DNA from: Candidatus Latescibacterota bacterium
GTDB lineage: Bacteria; Latescibacterota; UBA2968; GCA-2709665
NCBI GenBank assembly: GCA_963667175.2
Contig: CAXXXF010000006.1
Span: 288,001 to 352,000, forward strand
Direction: 5' to 3'
DNA: 64,000 bases
Positions 20,701 to 44,170 of the stretch are shown here, in pieces. The position numbers and the translations under genes are program-made. The notes beneath the pieces were generated by a model. The model was given only the letters and a program-made list of their open reading frames with translations, was not told where the DNA came from and did not search any database. Numbering within the stretch: position 1 is the stretch's first letter; each line of letters begins with the position of its first letter.

Positions 20701-21219
20701 CATCGCCTTTTCGACGCCAGCGAGCGAACGGTTGGGTCCGTTGCGCGGACCCCCGTTTTGCGCCTGCCTGCCGCCTGCCTGCAGGCAGGCGGAACCCCAC
20801 TCGACGTCCAGGCGTTCAAGTTCAAATTTGCCGGCTCGCCGCACAACCGTGCCGTTTACCATCACCTCCCAGACCTGGCTCTCAACCATCGGCGCCGCCG
20901 CCTGCCCCACCCCGGAGAGGCGATAGTCCCGCAACGGGCGATCCCTGTAGAATACCCGCCGGCCGTCCGCGGATCTGCCCAGTTGACCGGGACGGCCCGG
21001 GAAAGCGCCCAGCCTGTGTTCGGTCCCGCTTGCGTCCACGGACCACAATTCCGTCAACGCCGCCTGTCCGTTTTCGTAGAAAGCGGTCCGTATCCGCTGG
21101 CCGTTGGACTCCGCCGGAACTGGAAGCGCGGTCCCGGCCAGCAACCCGCAGGCGGAGAGCAGACGAAGGGCGAGTGAACTCATGAAGAACTTTCCAAGAG
21201 CCGACACAACCGGCTTCAC
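17719..21219 (-). CDS. TPR + GWxTD-domain exported protein
   Basis: Signal peptide, TPRs, FWTAHDPDLTTAINERLLEHYRRVWYA...WDRRGEVYIRFGEP, EVWVY, C-terminal Ig-like domains; alternative start at ATG 21183. Confidence 0.85.
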   Translation of the reverse strand: MKPVVSALGKFFMSSLALRLLSACGLLAGTALPVPAESNGQRIRTAFYENGQAALTELWSVDASGTEHRLGAFPGRPGQLGRSADGRRVFYRDRPLRDYRLSGVGQAAAPMVESQVWEVMVNGTVVRRAGKFELERLDVEWGSACLQAGGRQAQNGGPRNGPNRSLAGVEKAMMTVKLAYGALRQWEFRHARRFYRDAAQQFEALARNHLLYSKPAMAYAKLLAGRSQMAGAQGARWVGRENLSAIGEMILEYRRLHNGSSPVNLEALKASVRAGGLDDSEERILDRLFRSPEDRKKSPISYFYRSGAAPGEAMVISPYHRGRLLELVRHDDGFRVVDRVAGKAQIDSLLDVGRRVLDVDPQASVPVLQVVTLMAPKSARGHSKLGYAYLKSKNPDAALRSFERAVRLDHRMAEAYNGLGQVFETRPKARYDAIRYYTKALQYNRDYLEARYNIARLRRKLQEHDAKYDIEKVLDIDPTYAPAYLLLGEWYEVHEEDFERAALLYARYMTLEPEDPRGRQRLAAVYLRSRNYERIVNLLTDYVRQHPDETGVMAVLAQACVGLGRLEWADRYFREYLQAATAEEQALYRDPVLLMSPEERGAYEMADGPARVELVKRFWTAHDPDLTTAINERLLEHYRRVWYALGAYSSGRQPWDRRGEVYIRFGEPEYRSTSDMKNYDQSLKVQRVRERIARQMYGQAALQMTFMGGPVYAVRSLKSNLSGGANMGEGFGAERRVEDLSSATYGDNRVARGTTEGEAQRTGITYGSGLTAENELTGTSLELLRFESVQMNQGALALGDSPNDFAFKAVSSQDDASMVPWEVWVYTDVNGGIEITFTDEHMRGEFEYAPPPMDVRIPLQQMTRFNQFNPRFVAQQAARVTPDYYKPPEGKLPLEFYYDLANFREDDRGLGSILEVYFGAPYKLGKYLPDRDATEMFLQRSVALNNPRNGAVYRRQGNLEFSGGGDLTGARGGFVPDLVDLGAPPGTYRMEVQVKDRLSGRQGRYRQEVVIDNYDRNFLQLSELQLAYSVVESDEPGKFKKGGLRVIPIPTRTFGRDQGVFVYYEIYRLKKDAFGQTRYKVAYTIRPKGVQGRSASGVISQLVRVFTGRKQELAVGYEQIGNSESEEIYMELDLKSTRPGQYILEIDVTDLNSGLTSNRQTGFYVQ
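20763..20789. repeat. CCTG...CAGG palindromic mini-insertion, in frame in CDS
   Basis: CCTGCCTGCCGCCTGCCTGCAGGCAGG (27 bp) between G and CG. Confidence 0.65.
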
Positions 21220-21243
21220 CGAAAGGTTTCGGGTTGATGTAAA

Positions 21244-21641
21244 CCCATTAAATCAAAAACCACAACTCACATGGATGGACAGGATAGACAGGATGAAAAC
21301 CAAAAAGGCGCGACAAACACACGAAAAAAACAAACATCAGAAACTACGAAACACGCGAAACACACGAAAAAAACAAACAGCGCAAACGACAAAACACGCG
21401 AGATAAGCGAACAATGCCTGGCTGGACCCTTGAACTCATCTCATTTAAAAAAACAAAACTCACATGGATAGACAGGATGAACAGGATAAAAACAAAAAAC
21501 GCGACAAAGGCACGAGAAAACGAGGAAAAGCAAAATGCACGACCAAAAACAAACATCGAAAACTACGAAAATAACGAAAAATATCTGGCTGACCCCGTTA
21601 ATCCCATTAAATCATAAACCAGAACTCACATGGATAAACAG
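21244..21641 (+). repeat. A-rich modular repeat array, locus R2 (two tandem units, three cores)
   Basis: ACTCA^CATGGAT cores at 21270, 21463 and 21629; 24-mer at 21337-21360; bounded by a 33-bp direct repeat (31/33). Confidence 0.92.
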
Positions 21642-24250: not shown

Positions 24251-24570
24251 GATCAGGATTTGCAGGATTAAGCAGGATTAGATACCAGGAGCAGGATGAA
24301 AACCGAAGAGCGCGAGAAAGGCACGAGAAAACCAACATCAGAAACTACGAAACACGCGAAACACACGAAATAAACAAACAACGCAAACGACAAGACACGC
24401 GAGATAAGCGAACAATGCCTGGCTGGGCCCTTGAACTCATCTCATTTAAAAAACAAAACTCACATGGATAGACAGGATGAACAGGATAAAAAAACAAAGA
24501 GCACGAGAAAGGCACGAGAAAACGAGTAACTGCAATAAATCAATACACCATAGACCGCACGACAACACTC
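24251..24570 (+). repeat. A-rich modular repeat array, locus R3
   Basis: CAGGAT runs from 24251, 24-mer at 24338-24361, core at 24463; about 160 bp nearly identical to 21333-21492. Confidence 0.92.
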
Positions 24571-32674: not shown

Positions 32675-32765
32675 AAAACTCTATGGATACATGGATACAC
32701 AGAATAGACAGGATTAAGTCAAAACCGGATAAACAAAAAGGGCGTATTGATAGCACGAGAAAGCA
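32675..32765 (+). repeat. Degenerate A-rich repeat, locus R4
   Basis: aaaactctatggatacatggatacacagaatagacaggatt...gcacgagaaa; A^CATGGAT at 32690. Confidence 0.65.
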
Positions 32766-32880
32766 TCATGCCATTACGCCCGGGCGTTCAGCAAATATCG
32801 ACCTGTTAAATAAATGGAACATACAAAACCTTCAGCAGTTGACGTATAGCACACTTCCCCCGTTTTTGCTAATCCCACGA

Positions 32881-34737: not shown

Positions 34738-34774
34738 CTCATTTATTGCATAACCTGAATAATTCGCCCTAAAG

Positions 34775-34951
34775 CATGAATTTACATGGATGGACAGGAT
34801 GAGCAGGATAAAGACCAAAAGGCGCGAGAACGGCACGAGAAAACGAGAAATACCGAAAAGCACGACAAATCGTACATCAGAAACTACGAAACACGCGAAA
34901 AATCACGAAAAATCCGCGGTTGAACCCCTTTCATTCAAAACACAAAACTCA
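34775..34951 (+). repeat. A-rich modular repeat, locus R5 (3' exon side of the intron)
   Basis: Core at 34785, 24-mer at 34877-34900, ends AAAACTCA at the intron boundary. Confidence 0.92.
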
Positions 34952-36930
34952 GTAGAGTCGAGATGTGGCGCGGTGGTTTAGGAGTGGCCTATCTGTTTCC
35001 GCCCCTTTCGTCTGGCGGTGCCTCAATAGCCGCTCCGTGCTCCGTTTCCACGTCCCGCTCATCGAACCGGACGTGCGGATTTACCGCATCCGGCTCTCGG
35101 ACAAGGAGTCATGCGTTCGCCCACGGAAGGTTGCGCGCCTGTACTTCCAGCCGGGTCAGGCCCAACGTGTTGTAGAGGACCTGGTCATGGAAGCGTGACC
35201 TTCCCTTTCCCGGTATTCGGTACTTGTTGCACAACCACCAGCGGAGCCGTTTCCGGGTGTGGCTGTCCACACTCCGATAGGCTTTGCTGGCCAGACCAAG
35301 ACGGAAGTAGTTGCCCCACCCTGCCAGCTTTCGGTTCAGGTGGGCAATCCGTTCTTGATGGTCTTTCAGCAACCACCGTCGCGCCGTTGCCTCGCTGATG
35401 GCCCGGCAGATGTGCCGGATGGCCTTCTTTGACGGGCGCGTGCCGATATAGGCCTTTCCCGTCTTTGGCGAGTAACAGCGGCCGATGGTGTAGCCCAGAA
35501 AGTCAAATCGTCCTTCCGGGAGCGTGCATATGCCCGTCTTCTGCTCGTTCACCGTCAACTTAAGCGCTTTCATGATGGATCGCATCGCACGCATCGCTTC
35601 TTCTGCACTGCCGCGACAGCAGATCACAAAATCATCCGCGTAGTTGACAATATGAGCCTCCAGACGTTGCTGATGTCCCCGAAATTTCCATCCCAGAATG
35701 AACCGCCGCATATACAGGTTCGCCAACAGCGGGGAGATTGGGGCGCCTTGCGGTGTCCCCCTTCCCTGATCCTTGTTCGGCGTCGCTCGACGTTTGCGGC
35801 CCCGCTTGTCGGTCTCCTCAATCGGCGCGGTCAGCCACAGCTTGATCAGGCGCAGCATTCGCCCGTCACTGATGCGTCGCGCCACCGATTTCATCAACTC
35901 GGCATGCGGGATCGTGTCGAAGTAGCCGCTCAAGTCGGCGTCGATCACCTGCGTATGGCCGCGGCTCACCAGACTGTGAACCGCATTGATGGCGTCGTGC
36001 GCACTCCGTTTCGGGCGATACGCATACTGTTCCGCTGGCAGGTCCGCCTCAAAGATCGGCTCCAAGACCAGCATCGCCGCGGTTTGCACCACCCGATCCT
36101 TCACCGTCGGGATGCCCAACGGCCTTTGCTTCCCGTTCGGCTTGGGGATATATACCCGACGGATCGGAGACACCCGATACGATTTGCTCCTTACGGCTTC
36201 CGACAGTTCGCCTAACCACCGCTTTTGCCCGTATGACTCGATATCCGCAAACGTCTCGCCGTCCACGCCCGCCGCGCCGCCGTTGGCCTTGCAGCAGCGG
36301 TACGCATAAAGCAGGATGTCCTCGCGATACACTTTGTCATACAGCGCGTAGAATCGGTAGCCGGGCGATTCCTTCGCTTTGGCATGCAACGTCTTCCGCA
36401 ACTTCCGAACCTTCTCCGGAGGTCTTAGGCTCATACCAATCTCCAGGCTCTCGCTCCTTTGACGTTGCCCTTGAACCAAGGCCCCTTCCCTCCACCGGCA
36501 TTACCCGGCTTCCCGGGTACTACGGGCCTCTCCGCCACCCCACACGGCCCGGCCTGACCCTCACGGGCGTCCGGTTGGTGTCTATACACCACCGAGGGGG
36601 GCTTCCCGTGTTGCGTCGGAACTCCTTGTATACGTGCCTTCGCCATTACCCCGGCGGGACCGTTGGATGCGCGCGTTGCTCTCTTTTTCCAACGACGGCG
36701 GCCTTCCCCGATCCATGGGCGGGTCGGCTCCCGCATTACCTTTTTCGAGGCCTGCTCAGCGTTCACTCACGTTTCGGCCCGCATACTCGCCAGGTCGCCT
36801 TGCGACCCTCTACACCGGAGGCTTCGGAGATGTCGTTGCCTACGTCCCCGCTCCGGTTGCTACCGACCGCAGCAACATTTGTCGGGTGGGACTCTCACCC
36901 ACTGAAGTTCCGCGCCTTTTCACGGCGCAC
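34952..36930 (-). mobile_element. Complete group II intron (1979 nt)
   Basis: 5' GTGCGCCG at 36930; domain V GAGCCGGATGCGGTAAATCCGCACGTCCGGTTC (rc of 35064-35096); 3' end ...CTCTAC at 34952; EBS1 CATGGAT (rc of 36711-36717) pairs with exon ATCCATG. Confidence 0.95.
35109..36434 (-). CDS. ltrA: Group II intron reverse transcriptase/maturase, no endonuclease domain
   Basis: RPLGIPTVKDR, DADLSGYFD, GTPQGAPISPLLAN, YADD, FDFLGY, GWGNYF; ATG 36434; no HNH tail. Confidence 0.95.
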   Translation of the reverse strand: MSLRPPEKVRKLRKTLHAKAKESPGYRFYALYDKVYREDILLYAYRCCKANGGAAGVDGETFADIESYGQKRWLGELSEAVRSKSYRVSPIRRVYIPKPNGKQRPLGIPTVKDRVVQTAAMLVLEPIFEADLPAEQYAYRPKRSAHDAINAVHSLVSRGHTQVIDADLSGYFDTIPHAELMKSVARRISDGRMLRLIKLWLTAPIEETDKRGRKRRATPNKDQGRGTPQGAPISPLLANLYMRRFILGWKFRGHQQRLEAHIVNYADDFVICCRGSAEEAMRAMRSIMKALKLTVNEQKTGICTLPEGRFDFLGYTIGRCYSPKTGKAYIGTRPSKKAIRHICRAISEATARRWLLKDHQERIAHLNRKLAGWGNYFRLGLASKAYRSVDSHTRKRLRWWLCNKYRIPGKGRSRFHDQVLYNTLGLTRLEVQARNLPWANA

Positions 36931-36955
36931 CATGGATGGACAGGATGAGCAGGAT
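36931..36955 (+). repeat. Remainder of the interrupted repeat core (5' exon)
   Basis: CATGGATGGACAGGATGAGCAGGAT, identical to 34785-34809. Confidence 0.92.
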
Positions 36956-37192
36956 CATAACATGATGCAGGAAAAAGCCTGGAGCGGGATAAATGCTCAC
37001 AATTCCGGGCCAAAGCGATGGATCCTTAACCCCTTTAGTTCGCCTGGCGCGGCTCTGCTATGCCCAGCCGCAACCAAATATCACGGGGAGCACGGTATTG
37101 TTTACATCCTCCCACTCTTCTGTGGTGGGGCCTGAATGTCGACTATTTGCTGCTTCTGAAAATAAATGGAAGCTGACAACTGTTCTTCCTGA

Positions 37193-37220
37193 CCACTGGC
37201 CACTGGCCACTATTTACTGC
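37193..37220. repeat. Heptamer tandem repeat (CCACTGG/CCACTAT) x4
   Basis: ccactgg ccactgg ccactat ttactgc. Confidence 0.55.
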
Positions 37221-37323
37221 TCCTGGTAATGACATTTCCCTTGACACGTTGGACATTGCACGCTTCCTTTACATAAATGGATCAATGTTAAAGTAAAGCC
37301 GAAATTCAACCGGAAAGTGCGCA

Positions 37324-41881: not shown

Positions 41882-42007
41882 TCCTGGCCTCAGTCGGGTC
41901 GCGTAAAGGACTTGAGCGTTCAGGGCGAACTTAATGGATTCCGATTTCCGGGAATAAATATACCGGATACGGGATGTAATGTAAACAGTACAAAGTTAGC
42001 GCGTTCC

Positions 42008-42036
42008 TTGACTAAATTCCAACTTCCATATATTTT
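42008..42036 (+). promoter_or_regulatory. Putative sigma70 promoter
   Basis: TTGACT-17 bp-TATTTT. Confidence 0.45.
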
Positions 42037-42091
42037 ATGCCTCGCCCGCAGAGCGACTTTATCAACGGACTGCCAACAACGTTCCCGCCAG

Positions 42092-44083
42092 ATGGCACTG
42101 CCAAAACCGCAAGCGACTTCCCCTGAATCGGAAGCCGGCCTCCAGGATCGGGGAATTACCCTCCGTTCCGTGGGGATGGGCGTGCTCGTGTCGGCCCTGA
42201 CCAGCGGCTGGGTCGCCTATTCCCGCACGGCCGCGGACACGTCGTCGGTCAATATCACCCACCTGCCCGTTTCCTTTCTCGGCGTCTTCCTCGTTGTCCT
42301 CACGATCAACCTGATCCTCCGCGCGCGGCCCGGGTCGACCGGTCTGGGTCCATCCGAGATGCTTGTGATCATGGCCATGGGCCTCGTCGCCGCGATGATC
42401 CCGGCACGCGGGCTGACCGGCATCTGGCTGGGACTGATGGCCGTCCCGTACTACCGCAGCACCCCCGAAAACGGCTGGATCGACTATATCCAGCCCCATC
42501 TTCCGGACTATCTGTTCCCGACCAACGACGGCCGGCAGACGTCTCTGCTCTACGAGGGCCTGCCGCCGGGCGCCGATATTCCCTGGAACGTCTGGTACCT
42601 CCCGCTGTTCTGGTGGCTCACGCTCATTCTGGCGGGATTCACGGTTTGCGCGTGCATCGCGGCGATCCTCCGAAAACAGTGGGTTGAGTACGAACGCCTC
42701 GACTATCCCCTCCTGGCGCCGATTCTGGAAACCATCGACGACGTCCGCGACCCTTCGGGTAAGAACAAGTGGCCGGACTACTTCAAGGGGCGCCTCTTCT
42801 GGATCGGATTCGGAATCGCCTTCGGAATCATTGGCTGGAACATGATCTCCTATTTCCAGCCCACGTGGCCGCGCATCAGCATGAGCCCGAACAAGGGCCT
42901 GTTCTACTTCGCGCGGGTCTTTCCGCCCCTGCTCACGCATATCAATACGTACACGATCGGCTTCGGGTATTTCGTGAAGCTGGAAATCCTCTTCTCCATC
43001 TGGTTCTTCCACTTCCTGCTGATGTCCGAGATCGCCCTGATCAGAAAAACCGGCTTTCAGTTCGGCCGGATGCACAAGTCCGGCGGCGGATGGGGCGATC
43101 CGCTCGTGCAGTGGCAGTGTCTCGGCGCGCTCTTCGTCTTCGTCGCGTGGGGGTTCTGGGCCGCGCGGCGCCATCTCAGAGACGTGATCCGCAAGGCATT
43201 CTTCAATGAACCCGGCGTGGATGATTCCAACGAAATTCTCTCGTACCGCACGGCCGTCATCGGGTTTATCGCGGGAAACCTCTACATTGTCGCCTGGCTG
43301 CACCAGGCGGGTATCGAACTCGCATTGATGGCCATCACCGTTCCGGCGTCGATCATCATCTATATCGCGCTGGCGAGATTCGTGTGCGAGTCCGGCACGC
43401 TCTACCTGGGCCTGCCCACCAGCCCCCTGGATATGGGCTATCAGATCCTGGGCACCGAGACCATTTCCGCAAGGGTGCTGACCGCATCGGCCACGTCGCA
43501 CGCGCTCCGGTGGATGTATTTCATGCCGGCGCTTTCCCAGGGCGTCAAGGCCATCGACCGCGCGCGGGGCAACCGCCGCATGTTGTTCTGGGCCGTGCTG
43601 GGCGGACTCCTCACCGCGTTGGCCGTGAACGTCTGGATGGTGCTCTATCTCGGATATAAATACGGGGCGTTCAACTTCACGGAATATCCCTTCACGAGGT
43701 ATGCGCCCCGCCTTTACGATGCCGTCGTGTCGAACATAAAATCGCCGGAACCGGCCTCGTGGGAACGACTCGTGCTGTTCGGATTCGGCGGACTCATCAT
43801 GGCCGCGCTCACGCTTTTGCGATACCGTCTGCCGTGGTGGCCGCTGCACCCCGTGGGATTCATCGTGACCACGACCAGCCTGCTTCACGAAATCACCGCC
43901 ATCCTCATCGTCTGGCTGTTCAAAGCCATTGTCATGCGCGTTGGCGGCGTGGGACTGTATCGCTATTTCCTTCCGCTCTTCTTCGGAATCATCGTCGGCC
44001 GGGCCACGGGTGTCCTGGTCTCGTTTCTGGTGGATCTGATCTGGTTTCCCGGAGGGGGCCACCACGTCCATGGATGGGCTTAA
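42092..44083 (+). CDS. Polytopic membrane protein, DUF6785/DUF6784 putative peptide-transporter type
   Basis: ILRKQWVEYERLDYPL, ARFVCESG, WWPLHPVG, PLFFGIIVG motifs; ATG 42092. Confidence 0.75.
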   Translation: MALPKPQATSPESEAGLQDRGITLRSVGMGVLVSALTSGWVAYSRTAADTSSVNITHLPVSFLGVFLVVLTINLILRARPGSTGLGPSEMLVIMAMGLVAAMIPARGLTGIWLGLMAVPYYRSTPENGWIDYIQPHLPDYLFPTNDGRQTSLLYEGLPPGADIPWNVWYLPLFWWLTLILAGFTVCACIAAILRKQWVEYERLDYPLLAPILETIDDVRDPSGKNKWPDYFKGRLFWIGFGIAFGIIGWNMISYFQPTWPRISMSPNKGLFYFARVFPPLLTHINTYTIGFGYFVKLEILFSIWFFHFLLMSEIALIRKTGFQFGRMHKSGGGWGDPLVQWQCLGALFVFVAWGFWAARRHLRDVIRKAFFNEPGVDDSNEILSYRTAVIGFIAGNLYIVAWLHQAGIELALMAITVPASIIIYIALARFVCESGTLYLGLPTSPLDMGYQILGTETISARVLTASATSHALRWMYFMPALSQGVKAIDRARGNRRMLFWAVLGGLLTALAVNVWMVLYLGYKYGAFNFTEYPFTRYAPRLYDAVVSNIKSPEPASWERLVLFGFGGLIMAALTLLRYRLPWWPLHPVGFIVTTTSLLHEITAILIVWLFKAIVMRVGGVGLYRYFLPLFFGIIVGRATGVLVSFLVDLIWFPGGGHHVHGWA

Positions 44084-44088
44084 CAGCC

Positions 44089-44170
44089 CGTTGATAAAGT
44101 CCATCCTGCCAGCGTCCGGCCCTTGTGACCGAACTACGGCGTTGCCTGCCTGCAGCAGGCAGGCGCTCCC
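44089..44170 (+). repeat. Second copy of the about 65-bp repeat, with a 19-bp CCTG...CAGG insertion (44145-44163)
   Basis: See 37614-37697; the insertion is at a different position. Confidence 0.7.

What the first reader, a model, noticed from the sequence alone, without database searches (positions are those of the whole stretch)
34775..36955. Group II intron that appears to target a dispersed repeat family: EBS1 matches the repeat core
Seen: removing 34952-36930 rejoins AAAACTCA|CATGGATGGACAGGAT, which is the conserved core of the A-rich repeats at 21270, 21463, 21629 and 24463. The intron has a CCCG-CCCATGGAT-CGGG stem-loop (rc of 36707-36723). Its loop CAUGGAU is perfectly complementary over 7 bp to the last exon bases ATCCATG. 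Six unoccupied A^CATGGAT cores (21270, 21463, 21629, 24463, 32690, 34785) lie within 14 kb in the same orientation. Known: group II introns pick targets by EBS1-IBS1 pairing, and class C introns exploit repeated sites such as terminators and attC. Inference: this endonuclease-less intron uses a multicopy intergenic repeat as a renewable safe harbour. I do not recognise this pairing as described.
Basis: partly seen in the sequence, partly recalled or inferred. Interest (0 to 1): 0.85.

Follow-up and report, generated by a model that had tools for sequence, protein, structure and literature searches.

The report
Group II intron homing into dispersed repeats
A mobile self-splicing intron in an uncultured bacterium has multiplied to 26 copies by aiming its short RNA guide sequences at the conserved cores of small repeats scattered between genes, and sister lineages of the intron have re-aimed their guides at other repeat families.

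Summary
Window 34952-36930 (minus strand) is a complete 1979-nt group II intron. It has Rfam D1-D4 and D5/D6 matches and an intact RT+maturase ORF without an endonuclease domain.

- **EBS1:** the loop CAUGGAU (36711-36717) is the real EBS1. In 65 non-redundant homologues this loop co-varies with exon positions -1 to -6 (mean 5.55 of 6 paired, against 2.62 when permuted).
- **EBS3:** intron position 285 co-varies with exon +1.
- **Copies:** the host genome holds 26 complete copies in three subfamilies with different EBS1/EBS3, and 16 copies are ORF-less.
 - A (CAUGGAU): 9 of 12 copies sit in the ...ATCCTGTCCATCCATG| repeat.
 - B (UGAAUUU): 4 of 6 sit at the start of a ~300-nt composite repeat unit.
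 - C (UGUCAGC): 8 of 8 sit in a third repeat that looks like a miniature transposon.
- **Sister genomes:** one has 7 of 7 A-type copies in the same repeat. Two other relatives carry the empty repeat core (34 and 10 sites), and no A-type intron was found among the copies read, so the repeat probably predates subfamily A.

The mechanism is ordinary EBS/IBS-guided retrohoming, with ORF-less copies probably mobilised in trans. The closest analogue is Thermosynechococcus elongatus. The new aspect is the target niche. "Renewable" remains untested.

The parts
34952..36930 (-). Complete group II intron, subfamily A, 1979 nt (5' GUGCGCC ... CUCUAC 3')
   Evidence: Rfam RF02003 at 102 bits (gathering score 49) and RF00029 at 41.6 bits (gathering score 40). 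Three other copies in the genome are 99-100% identical.
35109..36479 (-). Intron-encoded protein: reverse transcriptase plus maturase, no endonuclease. The longest ORF is 456 aa from a TTG; the likely ATG start is at 36434.
   Evidence: Pfam RVT_1 E 2.7e-36 and GIIM E 3e-13. YADD is at residue 280, and the ORF is intact in 10 of 10 full-length copies. The nearest solved relatives are group II RTs such as GsI-IIC RT, E 1e-53.
36711..36717 (-). EBS1 (CAUGGAU, intron positions 214-220), in the loop of hairpin 36707-36723
   Evidence: Co-varies with exon -1 to -6 in 65 homologues. It differs between subfamilies A, B and C in step with their targets.
36931..36937 (-). IBS1 (AUCCAUG), the last 7 bases of the 5' exon and the end of the repeat core
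36646..36646 (-). EBS3 (A, intron position 285), which pairs with the first 3'-exon base
   Evidence: MI 1.23 and 94% paired in 53 homologues. The pairs are A-U in subfamily A, G-C/U in B and U-A in C.
34951..34951 (-). IBS3 (U), the first base of the 3' exon
36738..36741 (-). Tentative EBS2 (AGGU in A, GGGU in B, CGUU in C; intron positions 190-193)
   Evidence: Weak covariation with exon -10 to -13: MI 0.46-0.60, 66-78% paired. In subfamily A only about 3 bp can form.
35064..35096 (-). Domain V (GAGCCGGAUGCGG-UAAAU-CCGCACGUCCGGUUC), followed by an unusually long domain VI that runs to 34952
   Evidence: Alignment to RF00029
36931..36992 (-). 5'-exon part of the occupied repeat copy
   Evidence: nhmmer hit C6:324992-324931
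34918..34951 (-). 3'-exon part of the occupied repeat copy (UGAGUUUUGUGUUUUGAAUGAAAGGGGUUCAACC)
   Evidence: Same downstream consensus as the empty copies
34744..34930 (-). Neighbouring empty copy of the repeat; its target point lies after 34785
   Evidence: nhmmer E 6.2e-28
21212..21641 (-). Three tandem empty copies of the repeat (cores at 21270, 21463, 21629)
   Evidence: nhmmer hits
24289..24558 (-). Empty repeat copies (core at 24463)
32688..32841 (-). Diverged empty repeat copy (core at 32690)
37130..37230 (+). Empty copy of the third repeat family, the target of subfamily C (...GGAAGCUGACA|A, target point between 37178 and 37179)

Best explanation
This is an active, or very recently active, bacterial group II intron of IIB-like structure whose protein has reverse transcriptase and maturase but no endonuclease.

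The excised intron RNA, bound to its protein, recognises DNA by base pairing. EBS1 (CAUGGAU) pairs with AUCCAUG and EBS3 (A) pairs with the next base, U. There is probably some help from a short EBS2 pairing or from protein contacts with the ATCCTG motif at -16 to -11. This target is the conserved core of a small intergenic repeat present in about 100 copies, so the intron has many equivalent homing sites outside genes.

Related intron lineages in the same genome changed almost every base of the EBS1 loop, plus EBS3, and now occupy two other repeat families. Most copies have lost the ORF and must be mobilised by protein from the full-length copies.

Shown here:
- the anatomy of the intron;
- the EBS1 and EBS3 pairings, by covariation;
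- the insertion pattern in two genomes;
- the intact ORFs.

Inferred:
- that insertion happens by reverse splicing, primed without an endonuclease;
- trans-mobilisation of the ORF-less copies;
- that re-aiming followed saturation of the older target.
For: **Anatomy**
- Rfam D1-D4-4 scores 102 bits and D5/D6 scores 41.6 bits.
- The ORF carries RVT_1+GIIM and nothing else.
- YADD is present and the ORF is intact in 10 of 10 full-length copies.

**Pairings**
- EBS1: 41 of 65 homologues pair 6 of 6, 19 pair 5 of 6 and 5 pair 4 of 6. The mean is 5.55 against 2.62 in 2000 permutations, whose maximum was 3.2.
- EBS3: 94% paired in 53 homologues.
- Within the genome, the loops CAUGGAU, UGAAUUU and UGUCAGC match the targets AUCCAUG, (U)AUUCA and GCUGACA.

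**Insertion pattern**
- 26 complete copies and 2 fragments were found.
- A: 9 of 12 in the repeat. C: 8 of 8 in its repeat. B: 4 of 6 at the start of the composite unit.
- The four full-length A copies are 99-100% identical, while the repeat copies around them differ. These are therefore separate insertions, not duplicated segments.
- Among sites with a perfect AUCCAUG|U, 9 of 10 occupied sites lie in the repeat, against 59 of 166 empty ones (Fisher odds ratio 16, p 9e-4).
- By a crude gene call, 25 of 26 copies are intergenic.

**Relatives**
- In sister genome G001, 7 of 7 A-type copies are in the same repeat. In G003, 7 of 7 ORF-less copies with EBS1 UUGCGAA sit at TAACCTTGATTCGCAA|.
- The empty core ATCCTGNNNATCCATGT occurs 39, 23, 34 and 10 times in G000-G003. 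The reversed control occurs 0 times.

**RNA**
- RNA-library contigs cover the intron. One contig joins its last base to its first base.
Against: - No spliced-exon junction or empty allele of this site was seen, so splicing and mobility are not shown directly.
- The head-to-tail joint is one Logan contig (depth 11.9), laid at 90% likeness. It could come from a related strain, from contaminating DNA or from a tandem copy.
- EBS2 pairing in subfamily A is weak, about 3 bp. What distinguishes repeat sites from the 107 other perfect AUCCAUG|U sites is therefore not identified, and selection against insertions in genes would give the same picture.
- Orientation relative to GC skew, which is expected to be biased for endonuclease-less introns, is 17 of 26 and not significant, p 0.17.
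- No promoter-like site lies upstream on the intron strand.
- Gene calls were made with a home-made caller.
Confidence: 0.85

Rival explanations
1. There is no preference for the repeat. The intron inserts at any AUCCAUG|U, and only insertions in harmless intergenic repeats survive purifying selection. The association would then be a survivorship pattern, not a targeting adaptation.
For: - The genome has 107 perfect AUCCAUG|U sites outside the repeat, of which 1 is occupied. Two further ORF-less copies sit at GUCCAUG sites outside it, so ectopic insertion does occur.
- The EBS2 pairing is weak in subfamily A.
- In T. elongatus most copies are also intergenic, and the authors name purifying selection as a possible reason (PMC2882425, section 10).
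Against: - The repeat core carries ATCCTG at -16 to -11. This is nearly the same as the AACCTG at -15 to -10 of the older B-type target, which suggests a recognised distal motif.
- The repeats hold 68 of 176 perfect sites while making up 0.27% of the genome. Whatever the filter, the repeat is the main supply of targets.
- 7 of 7 A-type copies lie in the repeat in a second genome.
Confidence: 0.25
2. The copies are relics. The intron spread in the past and is now immobile, so the pattern says nothing about present function.
For: - Mobility and splicing were not observed directly.
- 16 of 26 copies lack the ORF.
- Subfamily C has no full-length member in the assembly.
Against: - Three A copies are 100% identical over 1979 nt, and the copies within each subfamily are nearly identical to each other.
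- 10 of 10 ORFs are intact and carry YADD.
- Copies within G001 are identical to each other in the first 460 nt but 95.7% identical to those of G000, which points to separate recent bursts.
- Intron sequence is present in RNA libraries.
Confidence: 0.1
3. The association arose by duplication or transposition of repeat-plus-intron segments, or by gene conversion between repeat copies, not by intron homing.
For: - The repeats may themselves be mobile. They have weak terminal inverted repeats.
- The same 25-mer flanks the window's intron at 34785 and 36931.
Against: - The flanks of the nine occupied copies differ from each other within 20-40 nt of the junction on both sides, while the introns are 95-100% identical.
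- The junction is at exactly the same nucleotide in all copies, and it is the one predicted by EBS1 and EBS3.
Confidence: 0.03

Closest known systems
Thermosynechococcus elongatus TeI3/TeI4 group II introns (Mohr, Ghanem and Lambowitz 2010, PMC2882425; sections 7 and 10 read)
   Same: - Dozens of closely related copies: 28 there, at 85-100% identity; 26 plus 2 fragments here, at 87-100%.
- ORF-less derivatives outnumber ORF-containing ones.
- The ORF-less copies descend from one ORF deletion. Here they share one deletion junction.
- Families are defined by different EBS1/2/3.
- Most copies sit at sites with good IBS matches, mostly intergenic.
- One family there targets a repeated element (an IS200-family IS).
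   Different: - Those introns are CL/IIB1 with an endonuclease domain. This one has none.
- There the multicopy targets are an insertion sequence and the intron's own ORF (twintrons). Here all three subfamilies sit in short non-coding dispersed repeats.
- Mobility was shown experimentally there and not here.
RmInt1 and relatives of Sinorhizobium (class D, endonuclease-less; PMC4615759 abstract; PMC1802570 and PMC4181065 abstracts in the listings)
   Same: - Endonuclease-less RT-maturase.
- The homing site lies in a multicopy element (ISRm2011-2).
- Related introns have diverged in target specificity.
- IEPs can act on related intron RNAs.
- Divergence of specificity has been proposed as a way round target-site saturation.
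   Different: - The target there is a protein-coding insertion sequence, not a short non-coding repeat.
- The IEP class was not tested here. The RNA features point to class E/F rather than class D.
Class C (IIC) introns after terminators and at attC sites (review PMC4424553, passages)
   Same: They exploit a motif that recurs many times in a genome and lies outside coding sequence.
   Different: - IIC introns recognise a DNA stem-loop plus a very short EBS1 and lack EBS2.
- This intron uses a 6-7 bp EBS1 plus EBS3.
- Its target (ATCCTGTCCATCCATG) is not a hairpin.
Group IIE/IIF ribozymes (Nagy et al. 2013, PMC3753933, passages)
   Same: - Small IIB-like ribozyme: about 608 nt without the ORF here, 450-700 nt there.
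- 5-nt loop in domain V.
- Long structured domain VI, a IIF trait.
- Endonuclease-less IEP.
- One IIF intron forms circles, which may be echoed by the head-to-tail contig.
   Different: - Membership was not tested by phylogeny.
- The position of the alpha' motif was not examined.

Membership tests
Mobile bacterial group II intron | Conserved boundaries: 5' GUGYG and 3' AY | tested here: met
   GUGCG ... UAC
Mobile bacterial group II intron | Ribozyme domains, including domain V with the AGC triad | tested here: met
   RF02003 at 102 bits (gathering score 49). RF00029 at 41.6 bits (gathering score 40), with the D5 alignment GAGCCGGAUGCGG...CCGGUUC
Mobile bacterial group II intron | RT with YADD plus maturase (X) domain, encoded in domain IV | tested here: met
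   RVT_1 and GIIM. YADD at residue 280 in 10 of 10 copies
Mobile bacterial group II intron | EBS1-IBS1 pairing at the 5' splice site | tested here: met
   65 homologues with 38 distinct EBS1 hexamers. Mean 5.55 of 6 paired against 2.62 permuted
Mobile bacterial group II intron | Splicing and mobility in vivo | not testable with these tools
   Only indirect signs: identical copies, and RNA-library contigs including one head-to-tail joint
IIB-type exon recognition | EBS3-IBS3 pair with the first 3'-exon base | tested here: met
   Intron position 285 against exon +1: MI 1.23, 94% paired, 53 homologues
IIB-type exon recognition | EBS2-IBS2 pairing | tested here: inconclusive
   Positions 190-193 against exon -10 to -13: MI 0.46-0.60. 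By eye, 4-5 bp can form in subfamilies B and C and about 3 bp in A
Endonuclease-less IEP lineages (classes C, D, E, F) | No H-N-H endonuclease domain after the maturase domain | tested here: met
   Only 32 residues follow GIIM, and there is no further Pfam match
Class C (IIC) | Insertion after a terminator-like or attC stem-loop; short EBS1; no EBS2 | tested here: not met
   EBS1 pairs over 6-7 bp. The target is the non-palindromic ATCCTGTCCATCCATG
Class F (or E) as described in PMC3753933 | 5-nt loop in domain V; long domain VI (IIF); ribozyme of 450-700 nt | tested here: met
   D5 loop UAAAU and about 110 nt of D6. 1979 minus 1371 leaves 608 nt, and the ORF-less copies are 758-762 nt
Class F (or E) as described in PMC3753933 | IEP falls in lineage F or E in a phylogeny with reference sequences; alpha' lies in a terminal loop of DId3 | not tested
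T. elongatus-type genomic proliferation | Many near-identical copies, ORF-less derivatives, and families with different EBS at matching sites | tested here: met

The most novel reading that the evidence does not exclude

- The ancestral B-type target (TAR-CC-N-G-N-TATTCA|) is shared with homologues in other phyla.
- In this genome that target is nearly exhausted. Four unit starts are occupied. Four are empty, and three of those carry changed IBS1 bases.
- The derived A guide opened about 60 fresh sites, which lie in the same composite units 250-300 nt downstream.

Repeats and intron would then be in a continuing arms race or partnership. The set of natural guide-target pairs (38 EBS1 variants) would be a ready-made map of the targeting rules for an endonuclease-less IIB-like intron.
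Probability: 0.3. Interest if true: 0.65.

Novelty: new variant of a known kind. Interest (0 to 1): 0.55.

Why it matters
How group II introns multiply without damaging their host is central to the idea that they gave rise to spliceosomal introns and retroelements. This genome and its sisters offer several things:

- **A second natural case of large-scale proliferation with guide re-aiming**, after T. elongatus. It comes from an uncultured phylum (the closest relatives are Candidatus Latescibacterota MAGs) and involves an endonuclease-less intron.
- **A different kind of landing site.** All the targets are short non-coding repeats rather than genes or insertion sequences.
- **Target-recognition rules without an experiment.** The covariation data (EBS1 with exon -1 to -6, EBS3 with exon +1, a conserved TAR motif at about -16) give the rules for this lineage. 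These could help design compact gene-targeting introns.
- **A consequence for the host genome.** Small intergenic repeats can act as sinks that keep retroelements out of genes.

Tried and rejected
- **Stop-codon idea.** Many homologues carry TAG/TAA at about -16, so I tested whether the intron inserts a fixed distance after gene ends. 44 of 65 have a stop triplet at -10 to -20, but only 9 of those 44 close an open frame of 100 codons or more. Rejected; the motif is more likely a recognition element.
- **Orientation relative to replication.** GC skew on the intron strand is positive for 17 of 26 copies (p 0.17). Gene-strand bias is 14 of 26. No conclusion.
- **Orientation relative to neighbouring genes.** Of 50 intergenic A-type sites, the downstream gene has the same orientation in 32 and the opposite in 18 (crude gene calls). 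No rule.
- **Promoter scan.** 3 promoter-like sites against 1.5 expected, none on the intron strand. 6 terminator-like sites against 4.1 expected. Nothing usable.
- **Rfam at permissive threshold** on two composite units, one C-type repeat and one C-type intron. Only the intron models matched, and the repeats match no known RNA family.
- **Protein-coding reading of the A-rich strand of the repeat** (MDGQDEQD...). Rejected by eye, because copies differ at first and second codon positions.
- **Mosaic origin of the ORF-less A copies.** They differ from full-length A at 21 positions and from C at 45 positions out of 455. The sites shared with C are scattered, with no clear recombination block.
- **Reads.** No contig in the four runs joins 34951 to 36931, so neither a spliced RNA nor an empty allele of this site was seen. 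With contigs and a multicopy intron this says nothing either way.
- **Run listing.** Runs labelled sponge metagenome hold up to 0.73 of the sampled words. The best holder may be the source sample, so I draw no habitat conclusion beyond that listing.
- **Literature.**
 - Searches for group II introns together with REP, MITE, intergenic repeat or repeated sequence, and with Latescibacteria, found no description of EBS-guided homing into short non-coding dispersed repeats.
 - The one paper that held both kinds of term (PMC1590033) only cites a group II review in its reference list.
 - The library lacks most subscription journals.
 - I did not open any supplements, and the supplementary figures of PMC2882425 may hold target details that I did not see.
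- **Recalled, not seen in any call:** that RmInt1 needs T at -15 of its target.
Full report
**What is at the site**

Window 34952-36930 on the minus strand is a 1979-nt group II intron. It begins GUGCGCC and ends CUCUAC.
- Rfam places the D1-D4-4 model at 36767-36904 (102 bits, gathering score 49) and the D5/D6 model at 34952-35098 (41.6 bits, gathering score 40).
- Domain V reads GAGCCGGAUGCGG-UAAAU-CCGCACGUCCGGUUC. It is followed by about 110 nt of domain VI.
- The ORF 35109-36479 has an RVT_1 and a GIIM domain and nothing after them, so there is no endonuclease.
- Among solved structures it is nearest to group II intron reverse transcriptases, with GsI-IIC RT at E 1e-53.

**Is the loop really EBS1?**

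I fetched 80 loci encoding relatives of the protein and found the intron ends in them.
- For 65 non-redundant introns with at least 25 nt of 5' exon, intron positions 214-219 give the six highest mutual-information values against exon positions -1 to -6. MI is 0.85-1.65 and 78-98% of sequences are paired.
- The set has 38 different EBS1 hexamers. 41 of 65 pair at 6 of 6 positions, 19 at 5 and 5 at 4.
- The mean is 5.55, against 2.62 when introns and exons are permuted. The maximum in 2000 permutations was 3.2.
- RNAalifold puts the segment in the loop of a hairpin whose two inner pairs show compensatory changes: C-G to U-A in 10 sequences and to G-C in 4.
- Intron position 285 co-varies with the first 3'-exon base (MI 1.23, 94% paired, 53 homologues). 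This is an EBS3-IBS3 pair of the IIB type.
- An EBS2 at about 190-193 is only weakly supported.

**The genome-wide picture**

The window is C6:288001-352000 of a 5.52-Mb, 18-contig genome. It holds 26 complete copies and 2 5' fragments. They fall into three subfamilies that differ at nearly every base of the EBS1 loop and at EBS3, while the flanking hairpin is identical.

| Subfamily | EBS1 / EBS3 | Copies | Target | Occupancy |
|---|---|---|---|---|
| A | CAUGGAU / A | 4 full-length (99-100% identical); 8 ORF-less of 758-762 nt | ...ATCCTGTCCATCCATG\|T | 9 of 12 in the repeat core, at the same nucleotide |
| B | UGAAUUU / G | 6 full-length (94.5% identical to A) | AACCTGAATTATTCA\|YGAAAACCGGTGG | 4 of 6 at the start of the composite unit |
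| C | UGUCAGC / U | 7 ORF-less of 761 nt; 1 of 1059 nt | ...AAATGGAAGCTGACA\|ACTGCTCTTCCTGACCACTG | 8 of 8 in the repeat |

- **Subfamily A:** the other 3 copies, all ORF-less, lie at unrelated sites ending (A/G)TCCATG.
- **Subfamily B:** the target is the first 15 nt of a ~300-nt composite repeat unit. The A-type core lies 250-300 nt downstream in the same orientation. Four further unit starts are empty, and only one of them keeps an intact ATTCA.
- **Subfamily C:** the repeat has 7 more empty copies, one of them in the window at about 37130-37230.

Several further points bear on how the copies arose.
- The introns are near-identical, but the repeat copies around them differ within 20-40 nt of the junctions. 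These are independent insertions.
- All 10 full-length copies keep an intact ORF with YADD. The A and B proteins are 95% identical.
- The ORF-less A and C copies share one deletion junction. A single ORF loss probably preceded the A-to-C guide change.

**How strong is the link to the repeat?**

- A profile of the A-type repeat finds 103 hits, together 14.7 kb or 0.27% of the genome.
- The genome has 699 ATCCATG heptamers, about the number expected by chance. Ten of them are occupied, 9 of these in the repeat.
- Of 166 empty heptamers followed by T, 59 are in the repeat and 107 are not (Fisher odds ratio 16, p 9e-4).
- The repeat therefore supplies 68 of 176 perfect targets and takes 9 of 10 insertions.
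- With a home-made gene caller (3731 genes, 79% of the genome), 25 of 26 intron copies and 50 of 56 A-type cores are intergenic. There is no consistent orientation to neighbouring genes.

Whether the excess reflects recognition of more than IBS1+IBS3 or loss of harmful insertions cannot be decided here. The repeat carries ATCCTG at -16 to -11, close to the AACCTG at -15 to -10 of the B target.

**Relatives**

The nearest relatives are in Candidatus Latescibacterota MAGs, at 82-91% protein identity.
- In G001, all 7 copies with the CAUGGAU loop lie in the same repeat core. They are identical to each other in the first 460 nt but 95.7% identical to those of this genome, which suggests separate recent bursts.
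- In G003, 7 of 7 ORF-less 756-nt copies with the loop UUGCGAA lie at TAACCTTGATTCGCAA|TTCTTCGGGG. This is yet another guide and repeat pair.
- The empty core ATCCTGNNNATCCATGT occurs 39, 23, 34 and 10 times in G000, G001, G002 and G003. The reversed control occurs 0 times.
- I saw no A-type intron among the copies read in G002 and G003: 7 and 10 copies with a 5' end, out of 12 and 13 matches. The repeat therefore appears to be older than subfamily A, and the intron adapted to it.
- Homologues in Gemmatimonadota, Acidobacteriota and Eisenbacteria MAGs sit at TAGCCCGGAYTATTCA|-like sites. The B-type specificity is probably ancestral.

**Expression**

Runs labelled sponge metagenome hold the stretch.
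- Laying contigs of two DNA and two RNA runs showed intron sequence in the RNA libraries.
- Joints corresponding to the ORF-less form appear in one DNA run and one RNA run.
- In RNA run X16, one contig (depth 11.9, at least 54 nt on each side) joins 34952 directly to 36930, that is, the last intron base to the first. This is what an excised circular intron would give. A tandem DNA copy or a relative's sequence cannot be excluded.
- No spliced-exon or empty-site joint was seen.

**Comparison with what is known**

- The mechanism is standard retrohoming by EBS/IBS pairing. A review lists three target specificities for bacterial introns: homing sites, terminators and attC (PMC4424553, passages). 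This intron belongs to the first.
- The closest analogue is T. elongatus: 28 copies, six EBS families, 17 ORF-less copies, and one family in an IS200-type element (PMC2882425, sections 7 and 10).
- RmInt1 and its relatives are endonuclease-less and home to a multicopy insertion sequence. Their proteins can act on related introns (PMC4615759, abstract).
- It is not class C, because EBS1 is 6-7 bp and the target is not a hairpin.
- The 5-nt D5 loop, the long D6 and the small ribozyme fit the description of classes E/F, and F in particular (PMC3753933, passages). No phylogeny was made.
- What I did not find described is a IIB-like lineage whose subfamilies each occupy a different family of short non-coding dispersed repeats.

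**Verdict**

This is a new variant in target niche of a known kind of element that works by a known mechanism. Interest is moderate.

Noticed in passing
window 37130-37230 (+); also G000 C17:9100-9500 (L113): The third repeat family, the target of subfamily C, is about 155 nt long. It is bounded by 15-nt inverted arms (TTATTACGGGGAGCA / TGCTCCTGGTAATAA, 87% complementary), like a miniature inverted-repeat element. The intron target lies near its centre. The copy in the window is empty.
   Followed up: partly
L111 (G000 C15:289800-290500), L112 (G000 C6:668300-668900); window 34755-34800: The ~300-nt composite unit starts AACCTGAATTATTC and often ends GAATTAATGGGGTT. This is an imperfect inverted repeat (10 of 14 by eye). 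In the window the sequence GAATTATTCAGGTT follows the empty core at 34785 on the minus strand. The unit may be a small non-autonomous transposon. No target-site duplication was identified.
   Followed up: partly
L111 211-222 with 495-506; L112 162-173 with 384-395: Inside the composite unit, the segment AACATGA(A/G)TGGA is complementary to the A-type core TCCATCCATGTT 210-270 nt downstream (92% and 83%). It is unknown whether this is a real long-range helix of a transcript. Pairs of this strength are common by chance in such a stretch.
   Followed up: no
65 homologous introns (L001-L080), exon positions -16 to -14: About half of the homologues, from several phyla, carry TAG or TAA about 16 nt upstream of the insertion point. 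It is mostly not a gene's stop codon: 9 of 44 candidate stops close an open frame of 100 codons or more. It may be a position read by the intron protein or by EBS2.
   Followed up: yes
L083, L086, L088 (genome G003): Three full-length copies sit at sites that do not match their own EBS1 but match each other's. The loop AAUCGAA sits at ...TTCGGAA|, and the loop UUUUGGA sits at ...TTCGATT|. This is what recombination between intron copies at different loci would produce.
   Followed up: no
window 44069-44100 (+): CTTAACAGCCCGTTGATA|AAGTCC resembles the target TAACAGTCCGTTGATA|AAGT of a further subfamily (EBS1 UAUCAGC) seen in G001 and G002 but not in this genome. It lies at the stop codon of the ORF 41912-44083.
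   Followed up: no
G000 C13:174459-175517: One subfamily-C copy is 1059 nt instead of 761 nt, so it carries about 300 extra bases of unknown nature.
   Followed up: no
genome G002, e.g. C1:2188099-2188168, 2191510-2191579, 4005296-4005366: The A-type cores occur there as outward-facing inverted pairs about 36 nt apart. This again suggests that the core is the terminal repeat of a small mobile element.
   Followed up: no
window 21270-21300, 34785-34810 and other copies (+ strand): The A-rich strand of the repeat carries two or three CAGGATG / GGA motifs at 9-nt spacing. From memory this resembles binding motifs of CsrA-type RNA-binding proteins. Not tested in any way.
   Followed up: no
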